From: Arcobacteraceae bacterium
GTDB taxonomy: Bacteria > Campylobacterota > Campylobacteria > Campylobacterales > Arcobacteraceae
Length of the DNA: 33,989 bases
NCBI GenBank assembly: GCA_050304095.1
Contig: JBNLDA010000001.1
Span: 1 to 33,989 of the forward strand
Direction of reading: 5' to 3'
A model generated the notes under the pieces. That model was not told the DNA's origin, searched no databases, and saw only the letters and a program-made list of their open reading frames with translations. Positions 15,066-32,398 of this stretch are shown here, piece by piece. The position numbers and the translations under genes were made by a program. Every line of letters begins with the position of its first letter. Position 1 is the first letter of the stretch.

Positions 15066-15980
15066 ATGGATTTAAATAAATATAGAGAACAAAAAGCGCA
15101 ATGTGTAACTTGGAAAAATATAGAACCAATTTATAATGCTGTGCAAAATGCAAAAACAATACAAAAAGAAAATGTAGAATTGGTTTTAGATGATTGGGTA
15201 AGTATTGGTAAACGATCTGATCTGAATGATGAGGAATATAGCCTTTTATTAGAAGCATGTAATAAGCTTATCCCGTGGAGAAAAGGTCCTTTTAAACTTT
15301 TTGATCTGGAAATTGATACAGAATGGCAAAGCAATATCAAATACAATTTGATTCGTCCATATTTTAACCTCAAAGATAAAATAGTGGGAGATATTGGTTG
15401 CAATAATGGCTATTATATGTTTAGAATGCTTGAGGATAAACCAAAGAGATTAGTTGGTTTTGATCCAAGTCCATTAACAATGTTGCAATTTGATTTTTTG
15501 AATCATTTTGCAAGAACACCAATTATTTATGAGCAATTGGGAGTAGAGCATTTAGATTTTTTTGAACATAAATTTGATTTTATTTTCATGCTTGGAGTAT
15601 TGTATCATAGACCTGATCCAATTGGTACACTTAAAACTCTTCGAAATGCATTGAACAAAAATGGCGAAATATTGATTGATACATTTATGATAGATGGTGA
15701 TGAGGAAGTTTGTTTAACACCTAATGGACGATATTCAAAGATTCCTAATGTATTTTTTATCCCAACAATTCCTGCATTGAAAAATTGGGTTGAGCGAGCA
15801 GGGTTTATTGATATAGAGATTTTAGAAACAACGATTACCACTATTGATGAGCAACGAAAAACAAAATGGAGTTTTGATCAAAGCTTGGAAGACTTTTTAG
15901 ATCCAAATGATCCAACTAAAACGGTGGAAGGGTATCCTGCACCCAAAAGAGTATATTTAAAAGCTAAAAAGAAAAATTAG
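15066..15980 (+). CDS. cmoB: tRNA U34 carboxymethyltransferase CmoB
   Basis: PWRKGPFKLFDLEIDTEWQSNIKY signature. SAM-MTase motif VGDIGCNNGYY. LGVLYHRPDP. The ATG at 15066 is preferred over the TTG at 15051. Confidence 0.9.
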   Translation: MDLNKYREQKAQCVTWKNIEPIYNAVQNAKTIQKENVELVLDDWVSIGKRSDLNDEEYSLLLEACNKLIPWRKGPFKLFDLEIDTEWQSNIKYNLIRPYFNLKDKIVGDIGCNNGYYMFRMLEDKPKRLVGFDPSPLTMLQFDFLNHFARTPIIYEQLGVEHLDFFEHKFDFIFMLGVLYHRPDPIGTLKTLRNALNKNGEILIDTFMIDGDEEVCLTPNGRYSKIPNVFFIPTIPALKNWVERAGFIDIEILETTITTIDEQRKTKWSFDQSLEDFLDPNDPTKTVEGYPAPKRVYLKAKKKN

Positions 15981-16945
15981 AAGAAGTTAACACTACTTTC
16001 TTCTTCTTTTTTATACACTGCATACTGACTTCTTCCTTTATTTTTTGCTTCATAAAGGAATATATCTGCATTTTTAATTGCAGTATTGAGGTCTTCTCCA
16101 TCTTCAGGATAATATGAAATACCAATGCAAATAGTTTTATAAAGTAAGTGTTGATAGTCCTCATGAACAATAACTCCAGCTTTACTAAAATCAGTGATGA
16201 TTCTTTGTGCTATATCAATGACCTGTTTTTTTGATTTGTAATGAGTGAGGGCAACTAAAAATTCATCACCAGTAAGACGTGCGACTATATCAAATTCAGC
16301 AATATTTTTATGAATTACTTTAGCTAGTTCTATTAATACTTGATCACCAATATCATAATCAAATTCATCAATAACTGCTTTAAAATGATCAATGCCGATC
16401 ATCAAAAAGGCAATACTTGGGTCTTTTTTACCACTAAGATTCATAATCTTTTCAATATGTTTATTGAGATATTGGCGATTATAAACATTGGTTACACTAT
16501 CTAGTGATGATGCTTCCACATGATTTTTCTTCATGATACCAGCTGAAATAATTGGTGAAATTTGAAAAAATGCAGCTTGAATATGTTCATATTGGTTTTC
16601 TATTAATGCTTTTGTTGTTTTAGAATTGACATGGAAAGAAACGGTTGCATTAACATCTGTTTGAGTGTTGATAATAAAAAAGAAACTATTATCATCATCT
16701 AAATAAAAATCTTCCCCTTTTGTATAAATAGATTCTTTATAATCTTTATCCATATCAAAGAGTGAAAAATCAATATTATCAATGTGGTATTCTTTTAAAA
16801 GCCAATTAGCAATAAATTCACCCATCTCTTCAAGATTAGATGAATATTGTAATTGTTCATATAAAGAATATATCTTTTCTAATGCTTTGTAGCTATTTTG
16901 ATCAGATGCAGATTCTTTGATAAGATGTAATAACTGTTCTTTCAT
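15977..16945 (-). CDS. Degenerate GGDEF-domain protein (TGDEF) with a ~150-aa N-terminal sensor-like domain
   Basis: NVYNRQYL, IDHFKAVIDEFDYDIGDQVL, ARLTGDEFLV, YEAKNKGRS. The first Gly of the GG motif is lost, the Asn of the ND..GH element is replaced by Ile, and no RxxD lies upstream. Confidence 0.85.
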   Translation of the reverse strand: MKEQLLHLIKESASDQNSYKALEKIYSLYEQLQYSSNLEEMGEFIANWLLKEYHIDNIDFSLFDMDKDYKESIYTKGEDFYLDDDNSFFFIINTQTDVNATVSFHVNSKTTKALIENQYEHIQAAFFQISPIISAGIMKKNHVEASSLDSVTNVYNRQYLNKHIEKIMNLSGKKDPSIAFLMIGIDHFKAVIDEFDYDIGDQVLIELAKVIHKNIAEFDIVARLTGDEFLVALTHYKSKKQVIDIAQRIITDFSKAGVIVHEDYQHLLYKTICIGISYYPEDGEDLNTAIKNADIFLYEAKNKGRSQYAVYKKEEESSVNFF

Positions 16946-16957
16946 TCTAATCCCGAT

Positions 16958-17920
16958 TTAAAATAAATCAATTGTACTTGTTTCTTCCTGCGAGTATGCT
17001 AAAGCAATGCTTCTACCTTTGTTACGAGCTTCATATAAAGCAATGTCCGCATATTTTATAAGCTGATCTAATGATGTAGAATCATCTGGGTATACAGTTG
17101 TTCCTGCACAAATAGTTTTTTTCAATGTTTGGTTCGTATAGGCATTGACATTAATTTCAACATCTTTAAAAGCATCAATCAATTTTTGAGCAACGATCAA
17201 TACGTCATCAGGATGACTAATACTTGGTAAAGTTACAAAAAATTCATCAGCATTGAGTCGAATTGCAATATCTGATGCACGGATATTATTTTCAATAGTT
17301 TGGGCTAATTTGATTAAAACTTGATCTCCAATATCATAATCAAATTCATCAATGACTGCTTTAAAGTGATCTACTGCGATCATGACAAATCCGATCTTTT
17401 TATTTTCTCTTTGTGCTAATGGCATCAACTGATGAAGATGGTGCATGAGATAGGTTCTATTTGGCAAAGAGGTGAGAGTATCTGTAGAAGAATTATTTTC
17501 ATTTTCAATTTTATAATAGATCATTTTTAATGTAGGGGTAAAAAGTTCAAATAAAAATTTAAACTGATGTGCTTCTTCTTCAATTTTTTGCGCATGATCT
17601 AGTGTATCTGTACAAATATGATAAGTGATTTGTAAATGTTCTTCTACGTTTAAAGAAAATTGAAATGCTTTTGGACTGTCTTCTTCAAATTCTGAACCTT
17701 TGTGATAGATCACATTTTTTATTTGTCTAGTTTTGTCATAGGTTTCAATTTTTAGGGTATGAATATAGTGTTGTTGTTTAAACCAATCATAGATCAAAGG
17801 ATAGTATTTATTTGATTTTATTGGAGAATTAAGTTCTTCATAAAGTTTTTGAACTGAAGTCTTATAAGATTCATCAAGATCTAGTTTAGAATTTTTAAAT
17901 AGTATGTCAAATAAATCCAT
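16958..17920 (-). CDS. Degenerate GGDEF-domain protein (NADEF) that retains an RxxD I-site-like motif
   Basis: LPNRTYL, VDHFKAVIDEFDYDIGDQVL, RASDIAIRLNADEFFV, YEARNKGRS. It is a paralog of the downstream gene. Confidence 0.85.
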   Translation of the reverse strand: MDLFDILFKNSKLDLDESYKTSVQKLYEELNSPIKSNKYYPLIYDWFKQQHYIHTLKIETYDKTRQIKNVIYHKGSEFEEDSPKAFQFSLNVEEHLQITYHICTDTLDHAQKIEEEAHQFKFLFELFTPTLKMIYYKIENENNSSTDTLTSLPNRTYLMHHLHQLMPLAQRENKKIGFVMIAVDHFKAVIDEFDYDIGDQVLIKLAQTIENNIRASDIAIRLNADEFFVTLPSISHPDDVLIVAQKLIDAFKDVEINVNAYTNQTLKKTICAGTTVYPDDSTSLDQLIKYADIALYEARNKGRSIALAYSQEETSTIDLF

Positions 17921-17930
17921 TATTTTCCTT

Positions 17931-19778
17931 TTATAAGTTTATCACGCAAGATAGATTGTCTGTGTATCTAAATACTTGATTTCTACCTTGTTCCTTTGCT
18001 TTATAAAGAGCAATATCGGCAAATTTTACTGCTGTTGCAAAATCATCTGTATCATCAGGAACTATACTTACTCCAATACTAAGTGTTCTATTTAATGTAT
18101 AGCCTTGTTTGATATTAAATTCTTTCTTTTCTACATTCATTCTAATTTTTTCAGCTACTTTCATAGCTGATTCTTCAGTATTTTCACCCACTAAAAGAAT
18201 TAAAAACTCTTCTCCACCATATCTAATTGCAAGATCAGATTCACGAATTGATTCTTTTAAAATTATAGCCACATCTTCTAAAATTTTATCACCAATATCG
18301 TGTCCATATTCATCATTAACTGATTTAAAATGATCAATATCTAAAAGTAAGATTGCTAAATTAAAATGGTCTCTTTTTACTTGCGGGATCAATTTTTTCA
18401 GACTTTCTTCTAAATATTTTCTATTAAATAAACCAGTAAGTGTATCAGTATAAGCTGATTGTTGAAGTTTTTGCATTAAAAGATGTACTTCAAGAAGTGG
18501 TGTTGATTCGTATACATAACTTTTGATAAATGGCATATTGAGATTGATTGATTCTAACTCTTCATTTGTCTTAACTATGAAACTTAAAATTAATTTGTTG
18601 TGCTTATCAATATCTGCATGAATACAATGATATTTGTATTCATTATTGTTAAAACATGTACAAGTTTGATGAAAATCTGATGAGATGACATCTCCAGAGA
18701 TTTTTGTTGCTCTACAATTAAGAGGGTTCTCTAGTAACTGTTGCTTACAAAAAGTTAGATCACCATGTTCTATAACAGTATTCACAGTTTTGTTTTTATT
18801 GTCTATTTCATAGATATTGAAATGATTGAGATGAAATTGCGATATAAGGATTTGACTTAATCTATTGTAAATAGCTTCTTTACTATCATCTTGTTCAATC
18901 TCTTTTTTAAATTGATAGATTAATGAAAGTTTTGAGACAATTTCACTAGCATTATCAATAGGATTAGCATTGGTTACAGTTTTGTTTCCAATAAATATTT
19001 TGAGTTTTTGGTCAATGCTTTCAAAAGTATTTTGTAGTTTATGATTAAGTTTATTGTATTGTACTACTAGCTCTAAAGAATCTTTGTTGAGTTCTTCATC
19101 AATATCGAATTCAATTGGCTTGAATACGCCTTGACTCAATAACCCAAATCTATCTAGAAGTTTATTGATCATTTGAAAATGAACATTCATCATTTTATTT
19201 AAAAATGGAATGATGAGTAAAATAATAAATATTAAGAAGATCAATGTAAATGAAATCGTTTTGATTCCTGTAATTTGTGCTTTTGAAATATCTAATTCAA
19301 TACTAACTGCACCTAAAGTATCACCATATTTTACATTGTGACATTTTGTACAGTCTATAAATTGATTTACTTCTGCATTATAAGGAATAGTAACTCGAAT
19401 AGTAGGGATGGTTTCTATTTCTTTAAAATCAAATGCCATTTTTCCCGTATTAAGTACTTGACGATCAATCGAATCTCTTGGGAGATTATGATTTTGACTT
19501 TTCCCAAATTGGTCATCAACAAGATTAGATCGAACGACCCAAAGGTCTTTTACATTGTGTAAAGTTGAAATTGAATTAAGAAAAACCTCTTTTTGATCCA
19601 TATTGCCGTTAAGCATATGGGCAGTTAAACCTTTTTTAACGAGTTCAGAGATTATCTCTGCTTTTTCAATAGTCGAATTGATGCCACTTTTACGAAATTG
19701 ATAAATAGAGAATAGGCTGATAATAGTAGTTGAGATAACAATTATCACAATAAATCTATTAATAATTTTTTTCTGCAT
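17931..19778 (-). CDS. Membrane diguanylate cyclase: periplasmic CXXCH (DUF3365/Tll0287-like heme c) sensor, Cys-rich GAF-like domain, canonical GGEEF
   Basis: TM1 FIVIIVISTTIISLF. Periplasmic CTKCHNVKYGDTLGAVSIE (codons at 19338-19352). TM2 ISFTLIFLIFIILLIIPFL. DIDHFKSVNDEYGHDIGDKIL. RESDLAIRYGGEEFLILL. Confidence 0.85.
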   Translation of the reverse strand: MQKKIINRFIVIIVISTTIISLFSIYQFRKSGINSTIEKAEIISELVKKGLTAHMLNGNMDQKEVFLNSISTLHNVKDLWVVRSNLVDDQFGKSQNHNLPRDSIDRQVLNTGKMAFDFKEIETIPTIRVTIPYNAEVNQFIDCTKCHNVKYGDTLGAVSIELDISKAQITGIKTISFTLIFLIFIILLIIPFLNKMMNVHFQMINKLLDRFGLLSQGVFKPIEFDIDEELNKDSLELVVQYNKLNHKLQNTFESIDQKLKIFIGNKTVTNANPIDNASEIVSKLSLIYQFKKEIEQDDSKEAIYNRLSQILISQFHLNHFNIYEIDNKNKTVNTVIEHGDLTFCKQQLLENPLNCRATKISGDVISSDFHQTCTCFNNNEYKYHCIHADIDKHNKLILSFIVKTNEELESINLNMPFIKSYVYESTPLLEVHLLMQKLQQSAYTDTLTGLFNRKYLEESLKKLIPQVKRDHFNLAILLLDIDHFKSVNDEYGHDIGDKILEDVAIILKESIRESDLAIRYGGEEFLILLVGENTEESAMKVAEKIRMNVEKKEFNIKQGYTLNRTLSIGVSIVPDDTDDFATAVKFADIALYKAKEQGRNQVFRYTDNLSCVINL

Positions 19779-24783: not shown

Positions 24784-25707
24784 TTGTTATATGAAGAATT
24801 AAAAGTTAAATGTAACCACTTGGGTTTTTCCAATTTAGAGGACTTTGCTAAATATATTGGAGTTACTGCTTCAGATGTTTTGGAATGGGAAGAAAAAGAT
24901 ACTGTTCCATATACGGTGTCATTGATTATCCATTTACTCAATAATGAAAAAGAAGTACCAGTTGCAAATTCATTAGATGCAATGGTAGAAGAGTGTTTAC
25001 CATTGGCAACATTACTTGAAGAAGCATCAAGTTTTCCACATAAACTTGAAGAGATGTTCTTACTTCAAAAAGAATTAAATGATAATACTAATGGTAAAAA
25101 TTGGGAGTTGGGAGTTAATAAATTTGATAAAGAGATAAATTGGCTAAGATGTATTCATATGGAAGTAGCTGAATTGATTGATTCAACTCCTTGGAAACAT
25201 TGGAAAAATATTAAAGATGATCCAGATATGAACAATATCCATGTAGAATTAGTTGATATTTGGCACTTTTTGATGAGTTATGTTCTCTCTGAAACAAATA
25301 TTCCAAAAGCAGTTTCATTGGTCAATACACATTGTATCTATGAAGCGAGTGAAGATTTAGATATCAAATTACTTATTAAAGAAACGGAAAAATTATCATA
25401 TATTGCTTTAGCAATTCAAACTGGAAATATGCCTTCATTTAGTGGAATAGAGAGGTTTATTGATCAATTTTTTAGATGTTGTAAGATCTCTGGTCTTAGT
25501 TTTACATGGCTACAAAAACTTTATATTGGTAAAAATTGTTTGAATCAATTTAGGCAAGATAATGGGTATAAAGAAGGTACCTATATAAAAGTCTGGAATG
25601 GTGATGAGGATAATGTTGTTATGGTAGCACTTCTAGAACAAATGGAAAATGTTAGCTTCAATGTTCTCTATGAAGCTTTACAAGAAAAGTATGATCAAGC
25701 AAAGTAA
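24784..25707 (+). CDS. dut: Dimeric (all-alpha, Campylobacter-type) dUTPase with ~65-aa HTH-like N-terminal extension
   Basis: LQKELNDNTNGKNWELG, WLRCIHMEVAELIDSTPWKHWKN, VELVDIWHFLMSY, FRQDNGYKEGTYIKVWNG. N-terminus LGFSNLEDFAKYIGVTASDVLEWEEKDTVP. TTG start at 24784 with AAAGGA 7 nt upstream; an alternative ATG lies at 24982. Confidence 0.8.
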   Translation: MLYEELKVKCNHLGFSNLEDFAKYIGVTASDVLEWEEKDTVPYTVSLIIHLLNNEKEVPVANSLDAMVEECLPLATLLEEASSFPHKLEEMFLLQKELNDNTNGKNWELGVNKFDKEINWLRCIHMEVAELIDSTPWKHWKNIKDDPDMNNIHVELVDIWHFLMSYVLSETNIPKAVSLVNTHCIYEASEDLDIKLLIKETEKLSYIALAIQTGNMPSFSGIERFIDQFFRCCKISGLSFTWLQKLYIGKNCLNQFRQDNGYKEGTYIKVWNGDEDNVVMVALLEQMENVSFNVLYEALQEKYDQAK

Positions 25708-25717
25708 TTGCTTGATC
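25693..25717. terminator. Perfect 10-bp hairpin between convergent dut and the gamma-CA-like gene; candidate bidirectional terminator
   Basis: gatcaagcaa (25693-25702), loop agtaa (contains the dut stop codon), ttgcttgatc (25708-25717). Confidence 0.6.
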
Positions 25718-25731
25718 GTTGAATCATAAAC

Positions 25732-26256
25732 TTATCTGTATTCGTCTTTAAACTTCACATACCGAGCAGCATGCTCAATCAAGCCATCAACTTCATCTTG
25801 AGACAATGTTCTTACTACTTTAGCTGGACTTCCAACTATCAAACTATGTGGTGGAAATACTTTATTGCTAGTTACGAGTGAATGAGCTCCAACGATACTA
25901 CCTTTTCCAATAACGGCTCCATCTAGGATTGTAGCACTCATGCCAATTAAACAACCATCTTCAATGGTACATCCGTGGAGCATTACCTTGTGTCCTATTG
26001 TGACATCATTTCCAATTATTGTTGGATTTCCATCGCTCATATCTTCTTTTTTATAGTGAGTGACATGTACCATAGATAAGTCTTGAATAGAGGTTCGATC
26101 TCCAATTTCAATTTTATGAACATCACCCCTTACAACAGTTCCAAACCAAATAGAACTATCTTCACCAATAGTTACATTACCAATAATATCTGCACTTGGA
26201 GCGATCCAAGAGTTTTTGCCAATTTTAGGGAACCATTGTTTAAATTTTAAAAGCAT
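25732..26256 (-). CDS. Gamma-carbonic-anhydrase-like hexapeptide-repeat (LbH) protein
   Basis: IAPSADIIGNVTIGEDSSIWFGTVVRGD hexapeptide repeats. His ligand pattern MVHV ... IGHKVMLHG. Its start overlaps the M14 gene stop by 1 nt (TAATG). Confidence 0.85.
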   Translation of the reverse strand: MLLKFKQWFPKIGKNSWIAPSADIIGNVTIGEDSSIWFGTVVRGDVHKIEIGDRTSIQDLSMVHVTHYKKEDMSDGNPTIIGNDVTIGHKVMLHGCTIEDGCLIGMSATILDGAVIGKGSIVGAHSLVTSNKVFPPHSLIVGSPAKVVRTLSQDEVDGLIEHAARYVKFKDEYR

Positions 26257-28841
26257 TACTTTTCACCTTTATATTCTAATATTACAGGCTTTGAATAGTT
26301 TGGTACATTGTCATAAGTAAATATCCCATAATATTTATTCATATTTGTAGTTCCAAAATCATCAAAGGTATAATTGTCTTTACCTGCATAAATTTTGTCA
26401 CCATCTAGATGATTTGTAGGAGGATTAAATCTGTTTCTTACGACGTAAGTACCAACAAAGTCTTTATCAATTGGATTATCCCAAATGATTTTTGTCATAT
26501 TGTTTTCTATCTTATAAGATACATTACTTACTTGATCAACAGGTTTTTTTCTTTTTCCTATGTACTTAATAATAAGTTTTACAGATTCTTTATCATCCTT
26601 ACCATACCAATTCACCAAATGATTTTTACTTATAGCAGAAGTTGGTTTAATAAGAAATATGGCTTCTTTATTTTTTCGGTGCATATTTTGCAAATTTAAA
26701 ATTGAATAATTATCAAAGATAAATTTATGTGTTTTATTTTTTTGAAGATCGGCTCTACTTACTTCATATCCAATAAATTCGATACGATCACGATTTTGAA
26801 TGTTTTGATAATTGATATCATCTATCTCAACAAATTCTAAATTATAACGGATATCTTGTGTTGAATTTGTGGTGTTTTTATTTTTGATTTTAATATATGC
26901 ATCAGTAATAATAGTAGTATCTGGATTAGGTAGAGCTGAGAGGTCAAAACTCATTAAACCATAAATTTTATTGTTGTCTTTATCAAATCCACAAGCTAAT
27001 TGTTCATGATTCATAGTTTCAGGTGAAACTGTAGAAACTCTACTCACTTCAACAATTAATTCTTCTCTAGGAATAGTGTATATGATGTCAATATTTGGTC
27101 TATAATGAATTCCTCCTCCAAAATTTCCATATCCAAGGTCAAACATCATCATTTGAGAATCTCTACCTTCTGGTAGTTGTGTAGGTCCAGAAATTTTAAA
27201 GATCACTTTTTTTCTTTTAAGTAGTTTTTGCAAAATAATCTTTTCGCATTCATTAAAATTCCAATGACTCCAAATTCCTTGGGTAAGTTTTTCAGATGGT
27301 ATAGTTTGTCCTAAAGTTTGTATGATTTTTGCTTTAGCCACTTGATCATAATCAGTTATTTCTGCTATGCTTTCATCATCAATAAAAGAGATCGACCATT
27401 CGCCATATTTTTCAATCTTTGCATTGACTCTATTGAGGGGATATAATGAAATCCGCACATCTTTAATAATTGCATTTTCTGGAATTCCGTCTAGATTGAA
27501 CTGCATCATTCCATAGCTAATTCCTTTAGTTTCATTGATTCCAATGAATAAGGAATTTAATCCAAAATGTTTTCGATTTGTTTCAATAAGTTTTTGAGAA
27601 ACATAACCAACATCTTGAGGAAGAGGGAAAATGGTCTTACTGAATTCATCTGCTTCAAGAAGAGTTTTTACTTTTGTTTTAGGTGCAAATGGTGATTTTA
27701 TTCCTGTGATATTATCAACAGCACGTATATAATAATAGTAGGCAGTTCCACTGCTCAAATCAGTATCTGTATAATGTAAATCATTTGTTTGAGCAATCAT
27801 ATTGGCACAATTACATGCTTCTTTATTTTCTTTATTTCTAAAAATTTGAAAAAAGATATTTTTGTTTTCAAATGTATAATCCCAATGAAGAGTGACCTCA
27901 TTTGAACTATATTGATCAATATGAAAATTTGTTACTCTTTTAGGTGCTATTTTAGAATAATTTTGTGCTTCTCCCAATGCGTGTAAAAGGGCAGGTATAT
28001 TTTCGTTAATTGATTCTTTCATGTTTTGCATAAAATCTGGAATATTTCTTGTTCCTACTTCAACAACGGCACCTATAATACCTTTGCTATAATAATATTC
28101 TCTACCGCTTCCTGAAATTAATTTTGTTGGTGGTTTCCCTCTATGTATACCATATTTTCTACCAGTAATCTTTGATATTTCATAGTTCATATTGGCACAT
28201 AAAGCATTTAAATCTGTTCCATCGAGTTCAGCTTCATGATTAAATTTATGTGCAGGGAAAAAGACATTTCCTTGAGAGTGATAGTCTAAAGCTATGGTGA
28301 TGTTGTCATGTGCATCTACAAAGTTTTTCATTGAGCGTGTTTCGGGTTCACTAAATGGCTCTGGACCACTATAAACATTTGAAGAAGTATTGGTGATTTT
28401 AGTATAGCCAACTGAAAAATTTCTATTTAGATCAACCCCATAAGTACCATCGCCATTATTACGTCTATTTTTCCTCCAGAAAGAAAAATGTTTTTGACTA
28501 TACTCGAAACCATCTGGATTTAAACATGGAACAATATAAAGAGTATTCTTTGTTAATGTTTTTAGTATTTTTGGATTTTTATTATAATTATTTAAAAGAT
28601 ATTCAATAAAATGTACAGCTAATTCATTTCCAATCCATTCTCTAGCATGAATAGTTCCTGTATAAAGAAGAGCAGGTTTTAGATCTGCATTTTCTACATT
28701 TAATGAAATAGTTGCAAGAATAATATCTCGATCTTCCCAAGTTTTCCCTATATTTTGTATAGTGATTAAACTTGGATGATCTTTAACACATTGTTTTAAG
28801 AACTCAACTGTTTGGTCATATGACTTATACTGTTGCTTCAT
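26256..28841 (-). CDS. Large M14 zinc carboxypeptidase with FN3, two repeated beta-rich modules and FN3; no signal peptide
   Basis: Zn/catalytic motifs GTIHAREWIG (H65, E68), VDLNRNF, LDYHSQG (H188), AVVEVG (E261). FN3-like aa ~299-393 and ~766-858. Internal repeat ISYGMMQFNLDGIPENAIIKDVRISLYP versus KIYGLMSFDLSALPNPDTTIITDAYIKIKN. Hydrophilic N-terminus MKQQYKSYDQTVEF. Confidence 0.85.
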   Translation of the reverse strand: MKQQYKSYDQTVEFLKQCVKDHPSLITIQNIGKTWEDRDIILATISLNVENADLKPALLYTGTIHAREWIGNELAVHFIEYLLNNYNKNPKILKTLTKNTLYIVPCLNPDGFEYSQKHFSFWRKNRRNNGDGTYGVDLNRNFSVGYTKITNTSSNVYSGPEPFSEPETRSMKNFVDAHDNITIALDYHSQGNVFFPAHKFNHEAELDGTDLNALCANMNYEISKITGRKYGIHRGKPPTKLISGSGREYYYSKGIIGAVVEVGTRNIPDFMQNMKESINENIPALLHALGEAQNYSKIAPKRVTNFHIDQYSSNEVTLHWDYTFENKNIFFQIFRNKENKEACNCANMIAQTNDLHYTDTDLSSGTAYYYYIRAVDNITGIKSPFAPKTKVKTLLEADEFSKTIFPLPQDVGYVSQKLIETNRKHFGLNSLFIGINETKGISYGMMQFNLDGIPENAIIKDVRISLYPLNRVNAKIEKYGEWSISFIDDESIAEITDYDQVAKAKIIQTLGQTIPSEKLTQGIWSHWNFNECEKIILQKLLKRKKVIFKISGPTQLPEGRDSQMMMFDLGYGNFGGGIHYRPNIDIIYTIPREELIVEVSRVSTVSPETMNHEQLACGFDKDNNKIYGLMSFDLSALPNPDTTIITDAYIKIKNKNTTNSTQDIRYNLEFVEIDDINYQNIQNRDRIEFIGYEVSRADLQKNKTHKFIFDNYSILNLQNMHRKNKEAIFLIKPTSAISKNHLVNWYGKDDKESVKLIIKYIGKRKKPVDQVSNVSYKIENNMTKIIWDNPIDKDFVGTYVVRNRFNPPTNHLDGDKIYAGKDNYTFDDFGTTNMNKYYGIFTYDNVPNYSKPVILEYKGEK

Positions 28842-30259
28842 TTACCATTAGCCTTTTTATAAGATTGCCATACATCAACCATTCTATTAACTATCTTAGC
28901 TGTAAAACCTTTGACGTGAATAAATAAATCAGGTTGGGTTTCTAATATCTCTATAGCTTCTTTTTTTGTAAAAGTTTTATAGATTTTCTTGATTTTCTTT
29001 TCCCCAACTCCTTTTGTTTGTTTTAAAATTTTAGCTAATTGATCTTTAGTTAAGTGAATTTCAATAGATTGTGAAGCTTCATCATCACTTGGTGGTATCT
29101 CTTCATCCAAATTTTGAACTTTAATGCTTTTTAAGTTTTTGAGTGCAAATTTATCTTGAAAGTTCCATTTCTCACTAGGCCACTCTTCATATAATCTTGG
29201 AATTACATCGTAAATTTTGTATTTACTATCCAATTCATGGATGTAAACTTCTTTTTTCCCGTAGATTTTCTTCTTTTTGCCAAAATATGCACCATCATAA
29301 CTTGGACTATAGGCCCCAAAAGTTATATGTCTCATAGTTCGAAGTAATGATGAATCAATCTTACTTAATTCTTCCCAATTAAACATTGGAATATGAGGTT
29401 TTCTAAATCTACCTTTACTAAGACTCCACATTAAATATTGTCCAATCCAATCTCTAACATAAGGAAATGCTGCAAATGCTGTTGCACATTCCAATATCCT
29501 TACTTTGCCATCTTTTCCATATGCGACATCACAAGCCCAGTATTCAGCACGTGCAGCTTTACTTACTTTAACTGCAAGATCAAGTACAGATTTTGGTACA
29601 TCCATATAATCCATTGATCCACCCTGACTAGTGTTTGTAAGCCATGCCCCTTGAGGTGGTCTTCTCCAAAATGCACAAATTGGTTTATGACCAATAAGCA
29701 TCACTCTGATATCGGCTTCCATAGGAATAAAATCTTGAAAATACATTGGATGGTATTTTTTCTCATCAAATAATGCACGTGCTTCTTTATAATTATCGAC
29801 TTTGTGAACAAAATATCCACCATAGTTTGATGGTCCATAAGATTTTTTTACAATCTTTGGATATTTGCATTTTTGTAAGAATTTATCGCCATTCTCTCTA
29901 TTGTAGTAAATATAGGTTTTTGGTACAGGCAAATTGTATTTCCACGCAAATCGTGTTACATTTTCTTTTGATTTATTTGAAAATTGAGTATCAAGACTTG
30001 GAATAAATCGAACATTTGGCAACTCCCTTGAAATTTGTCTAAATGTTTCATAAGCAGTTGCAGGAATATTACCAATCAATACATCAATTTTCTTTCTTTT
30101 GACTTCATTGATGAATCTTTTTTTATCTTTTCCCCAATGGTACGTTACTGTTTCAATTTTATTTGGCCAACCTTTAAAATTCGAGTGATCGAAAAATCTT
30201 AAAACATGATCTAAGTATAAGAATCCTAATTTTGGCAGTTGTTTGTTGTTGAGTCCCAT
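28838..30259 (-). CDS. RimK-type ATP-grasp ligase with C-terminal tandem helix-hairpin-helix domain
   Basis: DIRVMLIGHKPICAFWRRPPQGAWLTNTSQGGS and CDVAYGKDGKVRILECA match the RimK-like ATP-grasp core. C-terminal LKQTKGVGEKKIKKI and LFIHVKGFTAKIVNRM are HhH-like. GGAGA RBS. An ATGA overlap links it to the M14 gene. Confidence 0.8.
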   Translation of the reverse strand: MGLNNKQLPKLGFLYLDHVLRFFDHSNFKGWPNKIETVTYHWGKDKKRFINEVKRKKIDVLIGNIPATAYETFRQISRELPNVRFIPSLDTQFSNKSKENVTRFAWKYNLPVPKTYIYYNRENGDKFLQKCKYPKIVKKSYGPSNYGGYFVHKVDNYKEARALFDEKKYHPMYFQDFIPMEADIRVMLIGHKPICAFWRRPPQGAWLTNTSQGGSMDYMDVPKSVLDLAVKVSKAARAEYWACDVAYGKDGKVRILECATAFAAFPYVRDWIGQYLMWSLSKGRFRKPHIPMFNWEELSKIDSSLLRTMRHITFGAYSPSYDGAYFGKKKKIYGKKEVYIHELDSKYKIYDVIPRLYEEWPSEKWNFQDKFALKNLKSIKVQNLDEEIPPSDDEASQSIEIHLTKDQLAKILKQTKGVGEKKIKKIYKTFTKKEAIEILETQPDLFIHVKGFTAKIVNRMVDVWQSYKKANGK

Positions 30260-30282
30260 TATTTAATTTCTCCTATTTTAAT

Positions 30283-31185
30283 TTATTTTTTTGTTTTTCT
30301 ATCAATTAGATCAACAATTAAGTCAATTTTTTTATCATTGAAATCCAACCCCATTTTTTCTTGTTCAGGTGTTGCAAATGCTGGGATTCCATTCACTTCT
30401 AATACAATGTATTCTTCTTTTTCTCTATCATAAATAATGTCTACACCAGCAATATCGGCCCCACAAATTTTTGCAGCTTTAATGGCGATATCTACAATTT
30501 CATCATTTGCTTCTCTTAAAAATATTGATCCACCACTAGTGATATTAGTTCGCCAATCTTCTCCACCAGCTTTTCTTCCATAACAACTGACAAATTGTCC
30601 ATCAACGATATCTACTCTAAAATCTGTTCTGTCATAATCAATGAATTTTTCAACATAAAAATATCGTAAATCCATTTGATTCAAAAATGGTAAAAGCATA
30701 TCTAAATTAGCTTCGTTTTCGATTTTCGTTAGACCAACTCCACCCCAACCATCTGTTGGTTTGTAAACCATTTTGTCCCATTTTTTAATGATTTTTTTTA
30801 ATTGGTGCGAATCATCTCTATGACATAATTTATAATCTGCAGTCGGTATTCCATGTTTACGAAGCATAAATGTTGTATGAAATTTGTCTTCTGTTAATTT
30901 AAAAGCTTCAAAGGTGTTTATCATAGGAATAACTCTATTAAGTGCTTCATATAAATATACTTGATATTGAGTTTGTTCTCCAGCATTGTATGAAAAAAAT
31001 AGGTCAAGATTGTCTAATTTTTCTTTATTGTATAGTATGTGTCCATTTTTAGCTATTGCATGTCTTAAGTTAACATCATTAAGTACATCAATGTCTCTTT
31101 GCTTTAGTTTTTTAATGATTTTTTCACCAATTTTCTCACCACCACTATTGGAATAAAGCCACATACCAATTTTTCTATTTTTCAT
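30283..31185 (-). CDS. RimK-family ATP-grasp amino-acid ligase
   Basis: KPTDGWGGVGL, DFRVDIVDGQFVSCYGRKAGGEDWRTNITSGGS, AGVDIIYDREKEEYIVLEVNGIPAF. At 300 aa it has typical RimK size. Confidence 0.85.
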   Translation of the reverse strand: MKNRKIGMWLYSNSGGEKIGEKIIKKLKQRDIDVLNDVNLRHAIAKNGHILYNKEKLDNLDLFFSYNAGEQTQYQVYLYEALNRVIPMINTFEAFKLTEDKFHTTFMLRKHGIPTADYKLCHRDDSHQLKKIIKKWDKMVYKPTDGWGGVGLTKIENEANLDMLLPFLNQMDLRYFYVEKFIDYDRTDFRVDIVDGQFVSCYGRKAGGEDWRTNITSGGSIFLREANDEIVDIAIKAAKICGADIAGVDIIYDREKEEYIVLEVNGIPAFATPEQEKMGLDFNDKKIDLIVDLIDRKTKK

Positions 31186-31196
31186 TCTTTCTCTCT

Positions 31197-32297
31197 TTAA
31201 AAACTTAAATGTATTTGATGGTGTTTTAAAATTTTCGTCATCATCACAATTCTTTGTTCAAAACTACTTTTTAAAGCTCTTTCATGAATTGTATGATCAC
31301 CATCACCAAAAGGACCGAAACCATCTAATGTAGTTACTCCATTACTAGCAACTATGTTTGCATCACTTACGCCGCCTCTATTTTCAGTAAGTAATTGTTC
31401 ATTAGTGATTCTTTGAAGCACAGATATTAACTTATCTTGGTTACAATTGTGTTCCATTACATCTCTTTGGATAAGACCATTTAAAATAGATTTTGTTCCT
31501 TCTACGTATGAAGTATTTGTAATTTTCTCAAGAGCATTTAGTAATCTATCTCTCTGTCTATTTTGCGTATAGCGAAGTTCTAAGAGTAGTTCGCATTTTG
31601 GGCTAATTGTATTGGCTCCAATCCCACCATTAATTTTCCCAACATTGACTGTCGTACCTTGTTCAAGGTTAGTTAGTTTTGTAAGTTCTTGAAGTTTATA
31701 AGAAGCCTCTAGATTTGCATTGATCCCCTCAGAATATCTTACACCAGCATGTGAAGCTTTTCCTTCGATAGTTATTGTAAATGTACCAACACCTTTTCGT
31801 CCAGTAACAATTTCAAGGTTTTTCCCTGCTGCTTCAAAGACAAAACAATAATCATAATCTTTAGCTATTGAGGCTGTAAGGTGCTTGGAATCATCGCTTC
31901 CAGTTTCTTCATCTGAAACTAAAAGCATATCAATGTTTTTAATTTCTTTGGTATCTATAAAAATATTTCGTAGTGACTGTAAAGCTACTATATTTCCACC
32001 TTTCATATCACAAACTCCAGGTCCATATATCCATTCATCATCTTGGGTAAAATTTTCAAATTCTCCTAAAGGAAATACGGTATCATTGTGACCTAAAAGG
32101 AGAATTTTGACTCCATCAACTTTTGGAGATTGGAATAAGAGATGATCTCCTATCAAATCTCTTTTATATCTTGTTGTTTCAAAATTGAGTGCTTCAAACC
32201 ACTGTTGCATTAAGTTCCCAACCTCATCAACGCCTGTTTTGTTTTTAGTATATGAATTTATACTGCATAGTGTTTGTAGGTCATTTAAGTATGTCAT
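31197..32297 (-). CDS. M20 family metallopeptidase, carboxypeptidase G2 (glutamate carboxypeptidase)-like
   Basis: LLGHNDTVFP, YGPGVCDMKGG, LVSDEETGS, GKASHAG, RGGVSDAN, GDGDHTIHE. The ATG at 32297 (MTYLNDL) is preferred over the TTG at 32327. Confidence 0.85.
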   Translation of the reverse strand: MTYLNDLQTLCSINSYTKNKTGVDEVGNLMQQWFEALNFETTRYKRDLIGDHLLFQSPKVDGVKILLLGHNDTVFPLGEFENFTQDDEWIYGPGVCDMKGGNIVALQSLRNIFIDTKEIKNIDMLLVSDEETGSDDSKHLTASIAKDYDYCFVFEAAGKNLEIVTGRKGVGTFTITIEGKASHAGVRYSEGINANLEASYKLQELTKLTNLEQGTTVNVGKINGGIGANTISPKCELLLELRYTQNRQRDRLLNALEKITNTSYVEGTKSILNGLIQRDVMEHNCNQDKLISVLQRITNEQLLTENRGGVSDANIVASNGVTTLDGFGPFGDGDHTIHERALKSSFEQRIVMMTKILKHHQIHLSF

Positions 32298-32369
32298 GAA
32301 TTGCCCAAATAAATAAATTTGTGGCAATTATATATAAAGAGAAGCGATGGTTTGGTTACAAGAGTATAT

Positions 32370-32392
32370 AAGCAAGGAGTGAATCCTTGCTT
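32370..32392 (-). terminator. Hairpin immediately after argG; candidate terminator separating argG from the ligase/peptidase operon
   Basis: aagcaagga (32370-32378), loop gtgaa, tccttgctt (32384-32392). The 9-bp stem is perfect. The trailing sequence on the minus strand is only moderately T-rich. A TATAAT-like box (minus strand, ~32327-32336) follows. Confidence 0.5.
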
Positions 32393-32398
32393 GAGTAT

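What the first reader, a model, noticed from the sequence alone, without database searches (positions are those of the whole stretch)
25732..32297. Five-gene coupled operon pairing two RimK-type ATP-grasp ligases with two metallocarboxypeptidases: candidate amino-acid tail writer/eraser system with unknown substrate
Seen in the sequence: five minus-strand genes run head to tail. The order is M20 CPG2-like peptidase (31197..32297), RimK-like ligase (30283..31185), ATP-grasp ligase with (HhH)2 tail (28838..30259), 861-aa M14 carboxypeptidase (26256..28841) and gamma-CA-like LbH protein (25732..26256). The spacings are 11 nt, 23 nt, a 4-nt ATGA overlap and a 1-nt TAATG overlap. The block is bracketed by perfect hairpins at 32370..32392 and 25693..25717. 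None of the five proteins has a signal peptide or a TM segment. Established knowledge: RimK-clade ATP-grasp enzymes add Glu or other amino acids to a free carboxylate. Examples are RimK on the ribosomal protein S6 C-terminus, LysX/ArgX on the LysW carrier, CofF and MptN on cofactors, and RIMKLA/B making N-acetylaspartylglutamate. CPG2-type M20 and M14 enzymes remove C-terminal residues. In eukaryotes, ATP-grasp TTLL ligases paired with M14 CCP peptidases form a reversible polyglutamylation code. Inference: this operon encodes both the building activity (two ligases, possibly initiation and elongation, or two different residues) and the trimming activity (two carboxypeptidases) for a C-terminal or side-chain amino-acid tail. 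The target could be a protein, a cofactor or a small peptide such as an osmolyte or storage compound. No acceptor is encoded in the cluster: there is no LysW-like carrier, no S6 and no short precursor ORF. The target therefore remains open.
Basis: partly seen in the sequence, partly recalled or inferred. Interest (0 to 1): 0.85.

Follow-up and report, generated by a model that had tools for sequence, protein, structure and literature searches.

The report
Bacterial glutamate-tail writer/eraser gene module
Four neighbouring genes (two enzymes that probably add glutamate residues and two that probably remove them) form a conserved, uncharacterised module in marine bacteria; it resembles the system that decorates tubulin in animal cells, but what it acts on is unknown.

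Summary
Five tightly packed minus-strand genes sit between two perfect hairpins, and the domain calls are as described.

Comparative data reduce the unit to four genes: a CPG2-like M20 peptidase, a canonical RimK-type ligase, an orphan ATP-grasp ligase with a (HhH)2 tail, and an 861-aa cytoplasmic M14 carboxypeptidase. This set recurs in about 146 Campylobacterota loci. It also recurs, at 47-64% identity, in Vibrionaceae and other lineages, once as an insertion between ubiA and plsB. The LbH gene is only a lineage-specific neighbour.

Both peptidases keep their catalytic residues. The M14 has an invariant Arg at specificity position 255, the hallmark of acid-specific deglutamylases. The HhH ligase folds most like ArgX/LysX/RimK, is strongly basic, and has no full-length relatives outside the module.

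No protein reaches the cut-off of any characterised family, there is no LysW-type carrier, and no paper found describes the module. The writer/eraser reading therefore passes its own refutation tests but is not proven.

The acceptor remains open. Leads are adjacency to rpsF-ssb-rpsR and efp in some lineages. Free poly-alpha-glutamate turnover is a serious rival. I rate it a new variant of a known kind (RimK/RimB, TTLL/CCP).

The parts
32369..32393 (.). Perfect 10-bp hairpin with a 5-nt loop, immediately after the argG stop codon. It separates argG from the module.
32327..32332 (-). TATAAT-like -10 element, 29 nt upstream of the M20 start codon. This is a putative module promoter (inference only).
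   Evidence: Sequence read. The element was not scored by the sigma-70 scan because no -35 hexamer is present.
31197..32297 (-). CPG2-like M20 dimeric metallopeptidase, 366 aa. All CPG2 metal ligands and the catalytic Glu are conserved. It is a predicted glutamate-releasing carboxypeptidase.
30283..31185 (-). Canonical RimK-family ATP-grasp ligase ('RimK1'), 300 aa, with intact K/D-x-R/E-V-N motifs. It is the predicted alpha-L-glutamate ligase (elongase).
28838..30259 (-). Orphan ATP-grasp ligase ('GraspHhH'), 473 aa, pI 9.6. The core spans residues 1-372, followed by an acidic linker and an (HhH)2 domain. Its fold is closest to ArgX/LysX/RimK.
29483..29491 (-). Codons for E257-C258-A259. This is the 'E-x-N' Mg-ligand motif with Ala in place of Asn, and it is invariant in all 36 family members.
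28841..29050 (-). (HhH)2 domain of GraspHhH (residues 404-473), joined by the acidic, variable linker encoded at 29051-29143.
26256..28841 (-). Cytoplasmic M14A-like zinc carboxypeptidase, 861 aa, with no signal peptide or pro-segment. The catalytic domain (residues 1-300) is followed by fn3 and about 470 residues of family-specific beta-rich domains.
28101..28103 (-). Codon for Arg247, which aligns to S1' specificity position 255 of CPA/CPB. It is invariant in 29 orthologues and predicts a preference for acidic C-terminal residues.
25732..26256 (-). Gamma-carbonic-anhydrase-like LbH protein. It is translationally coupled to M14 in this window but is not part of the conserved module.
25693..25717 (.). 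Perfect 10-bp hairpin between the convergent LbH and dUTPase genes; a likely bidirectional terminator.

Best explanation
Proposal. The four conserved genes encode a self-contained system that builds and removes short chains of glutamate (or another acidic residue) on a cellular protein that is not encoded in the module.

Proposed roles (all inferred):
- GraspHhH is the strongly basic ligase tethered by a flexible linker to an (HhH)2 domain. It recognises the acceptor, probably on or near nucleic acid, and attaches the first residue to a carboxylate.
- RimK1, the canonical RimK-type ligase, extends the chain with alpha-linked glutamates using ATP.
- The cytoplasmic M14 enzyme, with Arg at position 255, trims acidic residues one at a time from the free C-terminus.
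- The CPG2-like M20 enzyme removes the last or branch-point glutamate, or clears released Glu-peptides.

Candidate acceptors: ribosomal protein S6 (by RimK precedent and gene adjacency) or EF-P (by gene adjacency).

What is shown: gene conservation, the fold, intact catalytic residues, and the acid-type specificity residue.

What is inferred: the amino acid used, the division of labour, and that the acceptor is a protein.
For: Module conservation. M20, RimK, GraspHhH and M14 occur together, mostly in this order.
- Campylobacterota: RimK1 is directly upstream of GraspHhH in 96 of 121 evaluable loci, M20 is within 1.6 kb upstream in 62 of 97, and M14 is directly downstream in 54 of 111.
- Distant lineages: L059-L064, Photobacterium L067 and Veronia L058, at 47-64% identity for all four proteins.
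- In L064 the module is an insertion between ubiA and plsB.
- Gene overlaps suggest translational coupling.

Chemistry.
- RimK1 has canonical motifs, and its best family models are all alpha-glutamate ligases.
- M14 keeps its zinc ligands and catalytic Glu, and has an invariant Arg at position 255. That residue contacts the C-terminal side chain and marks acid specificity in CCPs and CPO (PMC4230590).
- M20 is closest to carboxypeptidase G2 and has an intact active site.

Protein-directed hint.
- The GraspHhH model (pLDDT 88.5) is closest to ArgX/LysX and RimK, which all ligate onto a protein C-terminal residue.
- GraspHhH has pI 9.6.
- A C-terminal HhH domain is kept in divergent members despite unrelated linkers.

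Neighbourhood. The module abuts rpsF-ssb-rpsR and/or efp in at least four configurations in Sulfurovum- and Sulfurimonas-type loci. In some, efp is followed by GraspHhH after an 11-29 nt gap.

Precedent. RimK with RimB is an experimentally shown writer/eraser pair for S6 polyglutamylation (PMC11957791).
Against: - No acceptor is identified, and no conserved small ORF exists near the module.
- S6 proteins encoded next to the module end in -EA or -QA. From my own knowledge E. coli RimK extends a Glu-Glu terminus, which is absent here.
- The neighbouring EF-P has an ordinary Lys-type loop and a basic C-terminus. EpmAB is reported for some Campylobacterota (PMC11388002).
- The S6 and efp adjacencies come from a few related clades, and are absent from this window and from the gammaproteobacterial copies.
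- GraspHhH lacks the Asn Mg ligand, so it might not be a ligase.
- RimK can make free poly-alpha-glutamate without any acceptor (PMC10375531, PMC11957791), so a protein target is not required.
- M14 or M20 is absent from many loci.
Confidence: 0.35

Rival explanations
1. Free oligo- or poly-alpha-glutamate metabolism. The two ligases polymerise free glutamate: the HhH ligase primes or holds the polyanionic product on its basic surface, and RimK1 elongates. M14 and M20 hydrolyse the polymer back to glutamate. The polymer would buffer or store glutamate, which is the main osmolyte anion in marine bacteria.
For: - No acceptor gene is present in any lineage.
- The module moves as a self-sufficient island into Vibrionaceae.
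- All identified hosts are marine: Campylobacterota from vents and sediments, Photobacterium, Veronia and Endozoicomonas.
- RimK makes poly-alpha-Glu in vitro, and RimB stimulates this (PMC10375531, PMC11957791).
- The basic charge of GraspHhH and the extra beta-domains of M14 could bind a polyanion.
- CPG2-like enzymes act on small N-acyl-glutamates (own knowledge).
Against: - The ComEA-type HhH domain points to nucleic acid.
- The closest folds act on proteins.
- The GraspHhH core is very strongly conserved.
- GraspHhH occurs alone behind efp in Sulfurimonas-type loci.
- The module lies next to translation genes in several configurations.
Confidence: 0.3
2. Small-molecule or cofactor glutamylation. 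The ligases add Glu to a metabolite or cofactor, as MptN, CofF and RIMKLA/B do, and the peptidases recycle it, as GCPII/III or CPG2 do on folates.
For: - The best NCBIfam hit for RimK1 is MptN at 153 bits.
- CPG2 is the closest solved relative of the M20 enzyme.
- In mammals (own knowledge), RIMKLA/B ligases paired with glutamate carboxypeptidases form a small-molecule writer/eraser pair.
Against: - All scores are far below the equivalog cut-offs: MptN 153 vs 350, CofF 64 vs 300.
- No cofactor-biosynthesis genes are conserved nearby.
- An 861-aa multidomain M14 and an HhH-tethered ligase are hard to explain for a small substrate.
Confidence: 0.12
3. EF-P modification system. GraspHhH, alone or with RimK1, acylates the conserved loop lysine of EF-P in place of EpmA.
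For: - efp lies directly upstream of GraspHhH (11-103 nt gaps) in 17 Sulfurimonas-type loci.
- efp lies upstream of M20-RimK1-GraspHhH in 8 Sulfurovum-type loci, and nearby in others; 28 of 146 loci in total.
- About half of Lys-type EF-Ps have an unknown modification (PMC11388002).
- A basic, nucleic-acid-binder-like enzyme could recognise the tRNA-shaped EF-P (inference).
Against: - Carboxypeptidases that need a free alpha-carboxylate do not fit removal of an acyl group from a Lys side chain.
- EpmAB-type EF-P is reported in Campylobacterota, and Vibrionaceae use EpmABC (own knowledge).
- efp is not near the module in this window or in the gammaproteobacterial loci.
- The adjacent EF-P sequences are unremarkable.
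Confidence: 0.07
4. LysW-type amino-group-carrier pathway for Lys/Arg biosynthesis. The ligases would be LysX/ArgX and the M20 enzyme would be LysK/ArgE, linked to argG.
For: - ArgX and LysX are the top structural matches.
- The M20 family includes LysK.
- argG is the upstream neighbour in 24 Arcobacteraceae-type loci.
Against: - There is no LysW-like ORF and no LysZ/LysY/LysJ.
- LysX scores 108 vs a cut-off of 276, and LysK scores 44 vs 363.
- argG is separated from the module by a hairpin and is absent from other lineages.
- The acid-specific M14 has no role in that pathway.
Confidence: 0.03

Closest known systems
RimK / RimABK ribosomal protein S6 polyglutamylation (E. coli, Pseudomonas)
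   Same: - A RimK-family ATP-grasp ligase adds alpha-linked glutamates.
- It is paired in one operon with a peptidase that removes them (RimB).
- RimK can also make free poly-alpha-Glu.
- The module here lies beside rpsF in some lineages.
   Different: - RimK1 scores 55 bits against the S6-ligase equivalog, whose cut-off is 331.
- The erasers are M14 and M20 metallo-exopeptidases, not a retropepsin-like endopeptidase.
- There is no RimA (EAL) regulator.
- A second, orphan ligase with an HhH tail is present.
- The neighbouring S6 proteins lack the Glu-Glu terminus.
Eukaryotic TTLL glutamylases with CCP (M14D) deglutamylases (the tubulin code)
   Same: - ATP-grasp ligases work together with cytosolic M14 carboxypeptidases that carry Arg at position 255.
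- The two-ligase, two-peptidase layout matches the split between initiator and elongator ligases and between chain-shortening and branch-point-removing peptidases.
   Different: - The ligases here belong to the RimK/LysX clade, not the TTL family.
- The M14 domain is closest to M14A/CPT types, not to CCPs.
- The second eraser is an M20 enzyme.
- The resemblance is analogy or convergence, not membership.
LysX/ArgX-LysW amino-group carrier system
   Same: It contains the closest solved folds to GraspHhH. The ligase acts on the C-terminal Glu of a protein, and an M20 hydrolase (LysK) releases the product.
   Different: - There is no carrier protein and there are no pathway enzymes.
- HMM scores are far below the cut-offs.
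- The M20 enzyme here is CPG2-like.
- M14 and the HhH domain have no counterpart in that system.
RIMKLA/RIMKLB with glutamate carboxypeptidase II/III (NAAG and beta-citrylglutamate)
   Same: A RimK-like ligase that makes X-Glu compounds is paired with a di-zinc glutamate carboxypeptidase of the same clan as M20.
   Different: - Those substrates are small molecules.
- Those enzymes are not organised as a gene module.
- They have no second ligase, no M14 enzyme and no HhH domain.
Carboxypeptidase G2 (Pseudomonas sp. RS-16)
   Same: It is the best solved relative of the M20 protein (E 4.5e-28), with all metal ligands and the catalytic Glu conserved and the dimerisation domain present.
   Different: CPG2 is a periplasmic folate-hydrolysing enzyme. 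The protein here has no signal peptide, and it scores 187 against the glutamate-carboxypeptidase model, whose cut-off is 349.

Membership tests
RimK (30S ribosomal protein S6--L-glutamate ligase, NF007764) | The whole-protein HMM score reaches the equivalog cut-off (331 bits). | tested here: not met
   RimK1 scores 54.9 bits, and GraspHhH is not listed. RimK1 scores 138 bits against the broader rimK_fam subfamily, just under its cut-off of 143.4.
RimK (30S ribosomal protein S6--L-glutamate ligase, NF007764) | ATP-grasp catalytic residues are present: ATP-binding Lys, D-x-R, and the D...E-x-N Mg ligands. | tested here: met
   RimK1 has all of them, including '...LEVNG...'. GraspHhH has all except the Asn, which is Ala259 in 36 of 36 members.
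RimK (30S ribosomal protein S6--L-glutamate ligase, NF007764) | The acceptor S6 has a C-terminal Glu-Glu. | tested here: not met
   Twelve S6 sequences encoded beside the module end in -EA or -QA. S6 of the window's own genome could not be examined.
LysX/ArgX amino-group carrier protein ligases | A LysW/ArgW carrier gene and LysZ/Y/J-type enzymes are present in the neighbourhood. | tested here: not met
   No conserved small ORF was found, and no such genes occur in the window or in related loci.
LysX/ArgX amino-group carrier protein ligases | The HMM score reaches the equivalog cut-off (TIGR02144, 275.6 bits). | tested here: not met
   RimK1 scores 107.6 and GraspHhH scores 69.1. The fold similarity is high (Foldseek 1.7e-15), but it is shared with RimK.
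MptN / CofF cofactor alpha-glutamate ligases | The HMM score reaches the equivalog cut-offs (350 and 300 bits). | tested here: not met
   RimK1 scores 153.2 and 63.6; GraspHhH scores 65.4 and 45.0.
TTLL glutamylases / CCP (M14D) deglutamylases | The ligase has a TTL-family ATP-grasp domain, and the peptidase has a CCP-type M14 domain. | tested here: not met
   No TTL Pfam hit was found. The best solved relatives of the M14 enzyme are CPB, CPA4 and CPT, and no CCP appears among the 54 listed hits.
TTLL glutamylases / CCP (M14D) deglutamylases | A basic residue (Arg) lies at S1' position 255, giving specificity for acidic residues. | tested here: met
   Arg247 aligns to Asp255 of CPB. It is invariant in 29 orthologues. 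The role of position 255 is taken from PMC4230590.
M14 metallocarboxypeptidases (active enzymes) | The HxxE...H zinc ligands, the Arg127 and Asn144-Arg145 substrate anchors and the catalytic Glu270 are present. | tested here: met
   H65/E68/H188, WRKNR, LNRNF and E261 are present and invariant. Position Tyr248 is occupied by Lys.
Carboxypeptidase G2-type M20 glutamate carboxypeptidases | Five metal ligands, the catalytic Glu and the dimerisation domain are present. | tested here: met
   The H, D, EE, E and H positions align with those of CPG2, and M20_dimer scores 3.2e-20.
Carboxypeptidase G2-type M20 glutamate carboxypeptidases | The curated family score is reached (NF004788, 349 bits; NF005602, 357 bits). 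| tested here: not met
   The scores are 186.9 and 205.9 bits.
Known EF-P modification enzymes (EpmA/EpmB/EarP) | The protein is homologous to a class II aaRS-like ligase, a lysine aminomutase or a rhamnosyltransferase. | tested here: not met
   None of the five proteins, and none of the genes beside efp, match these families.
Anti-phage defence systems (PADLOC) | Any of the five proteins matches a defence-system model. | tested here: not met
   No protein gave a hit, and no homologue was found in phage genomes.

The most novel reading that the evidence does not exclude
A bacterial counterpart of the tubulin code. A nucleic-acid-tethered initiator ligase, a RimK-type elongase and two glutamate-specific exopeptidases would reversibly polyglutamylate a core component of the translation or nucleoid machinery (S6, EF-P, SSB or another protein). 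This would tune its function in response to the environment in marine Campylobacterota and Vibrionaceae. It would be assembled independently of the eukaryotic TTLL/CCP system, yet converge on the same Arg255 deglutamylase solution.
Probability: 0.2. Interest if true: 0.85.

Novelty: new variant of a known kind. Interest (0 to 1): 0.62.

Why it matters
Reversible polyglutamylation is a major regulatory code in eukaryotes. In bacteria it is known only for S6, through RimK and RimB. This would be a second, differently built bacterial system: two ligases plus two metallocarboxypeptidases, one of them convergent with CCP deglutamylases.

If confirmed, it would show that this chemistry is used more widely in bacteria. 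It would add a new ligase clade with an unusual metal site and a nucleic-acid tether. It would also point to an unrecognised modification of a conserved protein, or to a cytoplasmic poly-alpha-glutamate pool in abundant marine sulfur-oxidising bacteria.

The question is directly testable. At least one cultured host carries an apparently intact copy (Photobacterium sp. DA100); the copy in Veronia nyctiphanis is split. The predicted phenotypes, such as +129-Da ladders and polyE reactivity, are easy to assay.

Tried and rejected
- First AlphaFold run. With 27 close homologues the model was unusable (pLDDT 45.6). It was replaced by a 123-sequence alignment.
- Metagenome scan. The profile scan returned only close Campylobacterota relatives, so it added sample size but no new lineages.
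- First small-ORF clustering. It found only alternative-frame shadows inside the large genes and was redone with overlap filtering.
- Permissive Pfam scans. Scans of M14 sub-segments and of the GraspHhH N-terminal and C-terminal extensions gave nothing beyond fn3.
- M14 C-terminal half. A homology search with this region found only fragments of the same protein family, so it gave no clue to the ligand.
- Other negative searches. PADLOC, phage genomes and Rfam (only a distant tRNA) all gave nothing.
- Literature. Five literature searches found no description of the module. The Iyer et al. 2009 amidoligase survey (PMC3268129) is not held and could not be checked.
- EF-P lead. I tested whether genes next to efp were EpmA or EpmB, and they are not. 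I tested whether the adjacent EF-P or S6 proteins carry unusual acceptor features. EF-P is ordinary, and S6 ends in -EA or -QA.
- Rejected explanations. LysW pathway: no carrier or pathway genes. Cyanophycin-like synthetase: CphA scores 42 vs a cut-off of 850, and the architecture differs. Graspetide maturation: scores of about 20-27 bits against cut-offs of 350-475, and no precursor peptide. Secreted peptidoglycan peptidase: there are no signal peptides, and the MltC neighbour in L001-L004 replaces M14 rather than accompanying it.

Full report
**Observation**

The window is low-GC (about 31%) chromosomal DNA of an Arcobacteraceae-like member of the Campylobacterota.
- M20 at 31197-32297
- a RimK-like ligase at 30283-31185
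- an ATP-grasp ligase at 28838-30259
- an M14 carboxypeptidase at 26256-28841
- an LbH protein at 25732-26256

The junctions are an 11-nt gap, a 23-nt gap, an ATGA overlap and a TAATG overlap. Perfect 10-bp hairpins lie at 32369-32393, right after the argG stop, and at 25693-25717, between the convergent LbH and dUTPase genes. No protein has a TM segment or signal peptide.

**What the unit is**

I compared 58 genome loci, 80 metagenome loci and loci found through divergent homologues.

Within Campylobacterota:
- RimK1 is directly upstream of the HhH ligase in 96 of 121 evaluable loci.
- M20 lies within 1.6 kb upstream, on either strand, in 62 of 97.
- M14 is directly downstream in 54 of 111, and elsewhere in the locus in 11 more.

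The same four genes recur in unrelated genomic backgrounds at 47-64% protein identity:
- L059-L061, at 47% GC, next to ATP synthase genes.
- L064, inserted between ubiC-ubiA and plsB. These genes are immediate neighbours in E. coli K-12.
- Photobacterium sp. DA100 (L067).
- Veronia nyctiphanis (L058), which has native GC but split genes.

An Endozoicomonas M14 fragment also belongs to this family.

The LbH gene follows M14 only in Arcobacteraceae-type loci (15 of 146). argG is upstream only in that group. The conserved module is therefore M20 + RimK + GraspHhH + M14. It behaves as a transferable unit, and no acceptor gene travels with it. After removing alternative-frame shadows, no small-ORF family recurs across lineages.

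**The parts**

*RimK1* is a canonical RimK-family ligase. Its best models are MptN, rimK_fam and LysX, all below their cut-offs.

*GraspHhH* belongs to a narrow orphan clade.
- In the 5.8-billion-sequence set it has 1300 hits, and the 120 best listed are 72-79% identical.
- Among 1.84 billion 50%-identity representatives, only 22 reach E <= 1e-30, and most of those are fragments. Below that, only the generic ATP-grasp region (about residues 100-260) matches.
- Residues 1-370 are nearly invariant. An acidic, variable linker and a C-terminal (HhH)2 domain follow.
- Members about 51-54% identical keep a ComEA-type HHH_3 domain despite unrelated linkers of up to about 250 residues.
- With a deep alignment the AlphaFold model is confident (pLDDT 88.5, pTM 0.86). 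Its closest solved folds are ArgX, LysX and RimK (Foldseek 1.7e-15 to 1e-12). All of these ligate onto the C-terminal residue of a protein.
- The protein is strongly basic (pI 9.6) in every domain except the linker.
- One anomaly: the Asn of the E-x-N Mg-ligand motif is Ala in all 36 family members, against Asn in 60 of 69 generic relatives. All other ATP-grasp residues are invariant.

*M14* starts at the position of the mature N-terminus of pancreatic carboxypeptidases, so it has no signal peptide and no pro-segment.
- It is conserved over all ~860 residues in every lineage.
- It keeps the zinc ligands, substrate anchors and catalytic Glu.
- Arg247 aligns with position 255, which is Asp in CPB and Ile in CPA. 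It is invariant in 29 orthologues.
- Position 255 contacts the substrate's C-terminal side chain. Arg there characterises the CCP deglutamylases and, as in CPO, predicts acidic specificity (PMC4230590).
- Its C-terminal ~470 residues match nothing beyond a weak DNRLRE hit, and they occur in no other protein.

*M20* is closest to carboxypeptidase G2. It conserves all five metal ligands and the catalytic Glu.

**How it most likely works**

All four enzymes point to glutamate, or at least acidic-residue, chemistry at a free carboxyl terminus: two RimK/LysX-clade ligases to build, and two exopeptidases to remove. My best-supported model (confidence about 0.35) is reversible glutamylation of a protein that is not encoded in the module.
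- GraspHhH is the acceptor-recognising, nucleic-acid-tethered initiator.
- RimK1 is the elongase.
- M14 shortens the chain.
- M20 removes the last or branch-point Glu, or clears released peptides.

This division of labour is inferred by analogy with TTLL initiators and elongators and with CCP1 and CCP5.

Leads for the acceptor come from gene neighbourhoods in Sulfurovum- and Sulfurimonas-type genomes. There the module abuts rpsF-ssb-rpsR and/or efp in at least four configurations:
- S6>SSB>S18>htrA(-)>efp>M20>RimK1>GraspHhH
- RimK1>GraspHhH>M14>S6>SSB>S18, in some loci followed by efp(-)
- efp>GraspHhH, with gaps of 11-29 nt
- GraspHhH>M14>x>efp(-)

S6 is the known RimK substrate, and RimK with RimB is a proven bacterial writer/eraser pair (PMC11957791).

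These leads are weak for four reasons:
- They derive from a few related clades.
- The adjacent S6 proteins end in -EA or -QA rather than Glu-Glu.
- The adjacent EF-P proteins are ordinary Lys-type, and EpmAB is reported for some Campylobacterota (PMC11388002).
- Neither gene is near the module in this window or in the gammaproteobacterial copies.

**Rivals**

- *Turnover of free oligo- or poly-alpha-glutamate (about 0.30).* It explains the missing acceptor, the island-like transfer, the exclusively marine hosts, the basic ligase surface and the polymer-binding-like M14 domains. RimK is known to make poly-alpha-Glu. It explains less well the ComEA-type HhH domain and the stand-alone efp-GraspHhH arrangement.
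- *Small-molecule or cofactor glutamylation (about 0.12).*
- *EF-P lysine acylation (about 0.07).* The carboxypeptidase chemistry fits this poorly.
- *A LysW-type pathway (about 0.03).* There is no carrier and there are no pathway genes, and scores are far below the cut-offs.

Defence-system and phage origins were not supported.

**Comparison with known systems and novelty**

The module works like RimK/RimB and like TTLL/CCP, but it is a member of neither.
- The S6-ligase equivalog score is 55 against a cut-off of 331.
- The erasers belong to different peptidase families from RimB.
- The ligases are not TTL-type.
- The M14 domain is M14A/CPT-like rather than CCP-like, so Arg255 is convergent.

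Searches of the held literature found no description of this gene set. The 2009 amidoligase survey could not be consulted. I classify the module as a new variant of a known kind.

**Verdict**

- The module is a conserved four-gene unit. It is chemically coherent and uncharacterised, with an unknown target.
- Interest is 0.62. It is not yet surprising in principle, because RimK-type tails are known. It is still a distinctive and readily testable system.
- The chance that it reveals a new regulated modification of core bacterial machinery is about 0.2.

Noticed in passing
L058 10505-14552 (Veronia nyctiphanis NZ_PEIB01000040.1): The GraspHhH and M14 orthologues are each split into two overlapping ORFs, in a contig with uniform, native GC of about 44%. 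The module may be decaying in this Vibrionaceae species, or the assembly may carry frameshift errors.
   Followed up: partly
L057 (Alpha proteobacterium SCGC AAA240-E13, 693-bp contig): This contig has 31% GC and is 89% identical to the window's GraspHhH. It is probably Campylobacterota contamination of the single-cell assembly rather than an alphaproteobacterial copy.
   Followed up: no
L065 10001-10864: A 287-aa protein (P0132) is 42% identical to GraspHhH residues 6-273 and has no Pfam hit. It comes from a 60%-GC organism and sits between rpsP-KH-rimM-trmD-rplS and smpB. It may be a degenerate relative, again in a translation-gene context.
   Followed up: no
window 24784-25707 (+): The dimeric-type dUTPase (dUTPase_2) has an extra N-terminal region of about 86 residues that the family model does not cover. 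A 40%-identical dUTPase lies upstream of the divergent M20 gene in L028, L036, L038 and L046.
   Followed up: no
window 15977-19778 (-): Three consecutive GGDEF-domain (diguanylate cyclase-like) genes lie here. c-di-GMP regulates RimK in Pseudomonas, but no link to the module was tested.
   Followed up: no
L064 11485-14151 and L067 10446-13109: The M14 orthologues of L064 (gammaproteobacterial-type synteny) and L067 (Photobacterium) carry an additional acidic C-terminal tail of about 25-30 residues that the Campylobacterota copies lack.
   Followed up: no
L001-L004 (for example L003 12104-13270): In these Arcobacteraceae chromosomes an MltC-like lytic transglycosylase gene follows the ligase pair where M14 would be. 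M14 is not found within 10 kb.
   Followed up: partly
window 12145-14925 (-): A 926-aa ORF contains a CcsB cytochrome c biogenesis domain only in its C-terminal quarter. It is probably a CcsBA-type fusion.
   Followed up: no
L022 6984-7685: In Sulfurovum-type configuration A, a ClpP-like protease gene follows GraspHhH where M14 sits in other lineages.
   Followed up: no
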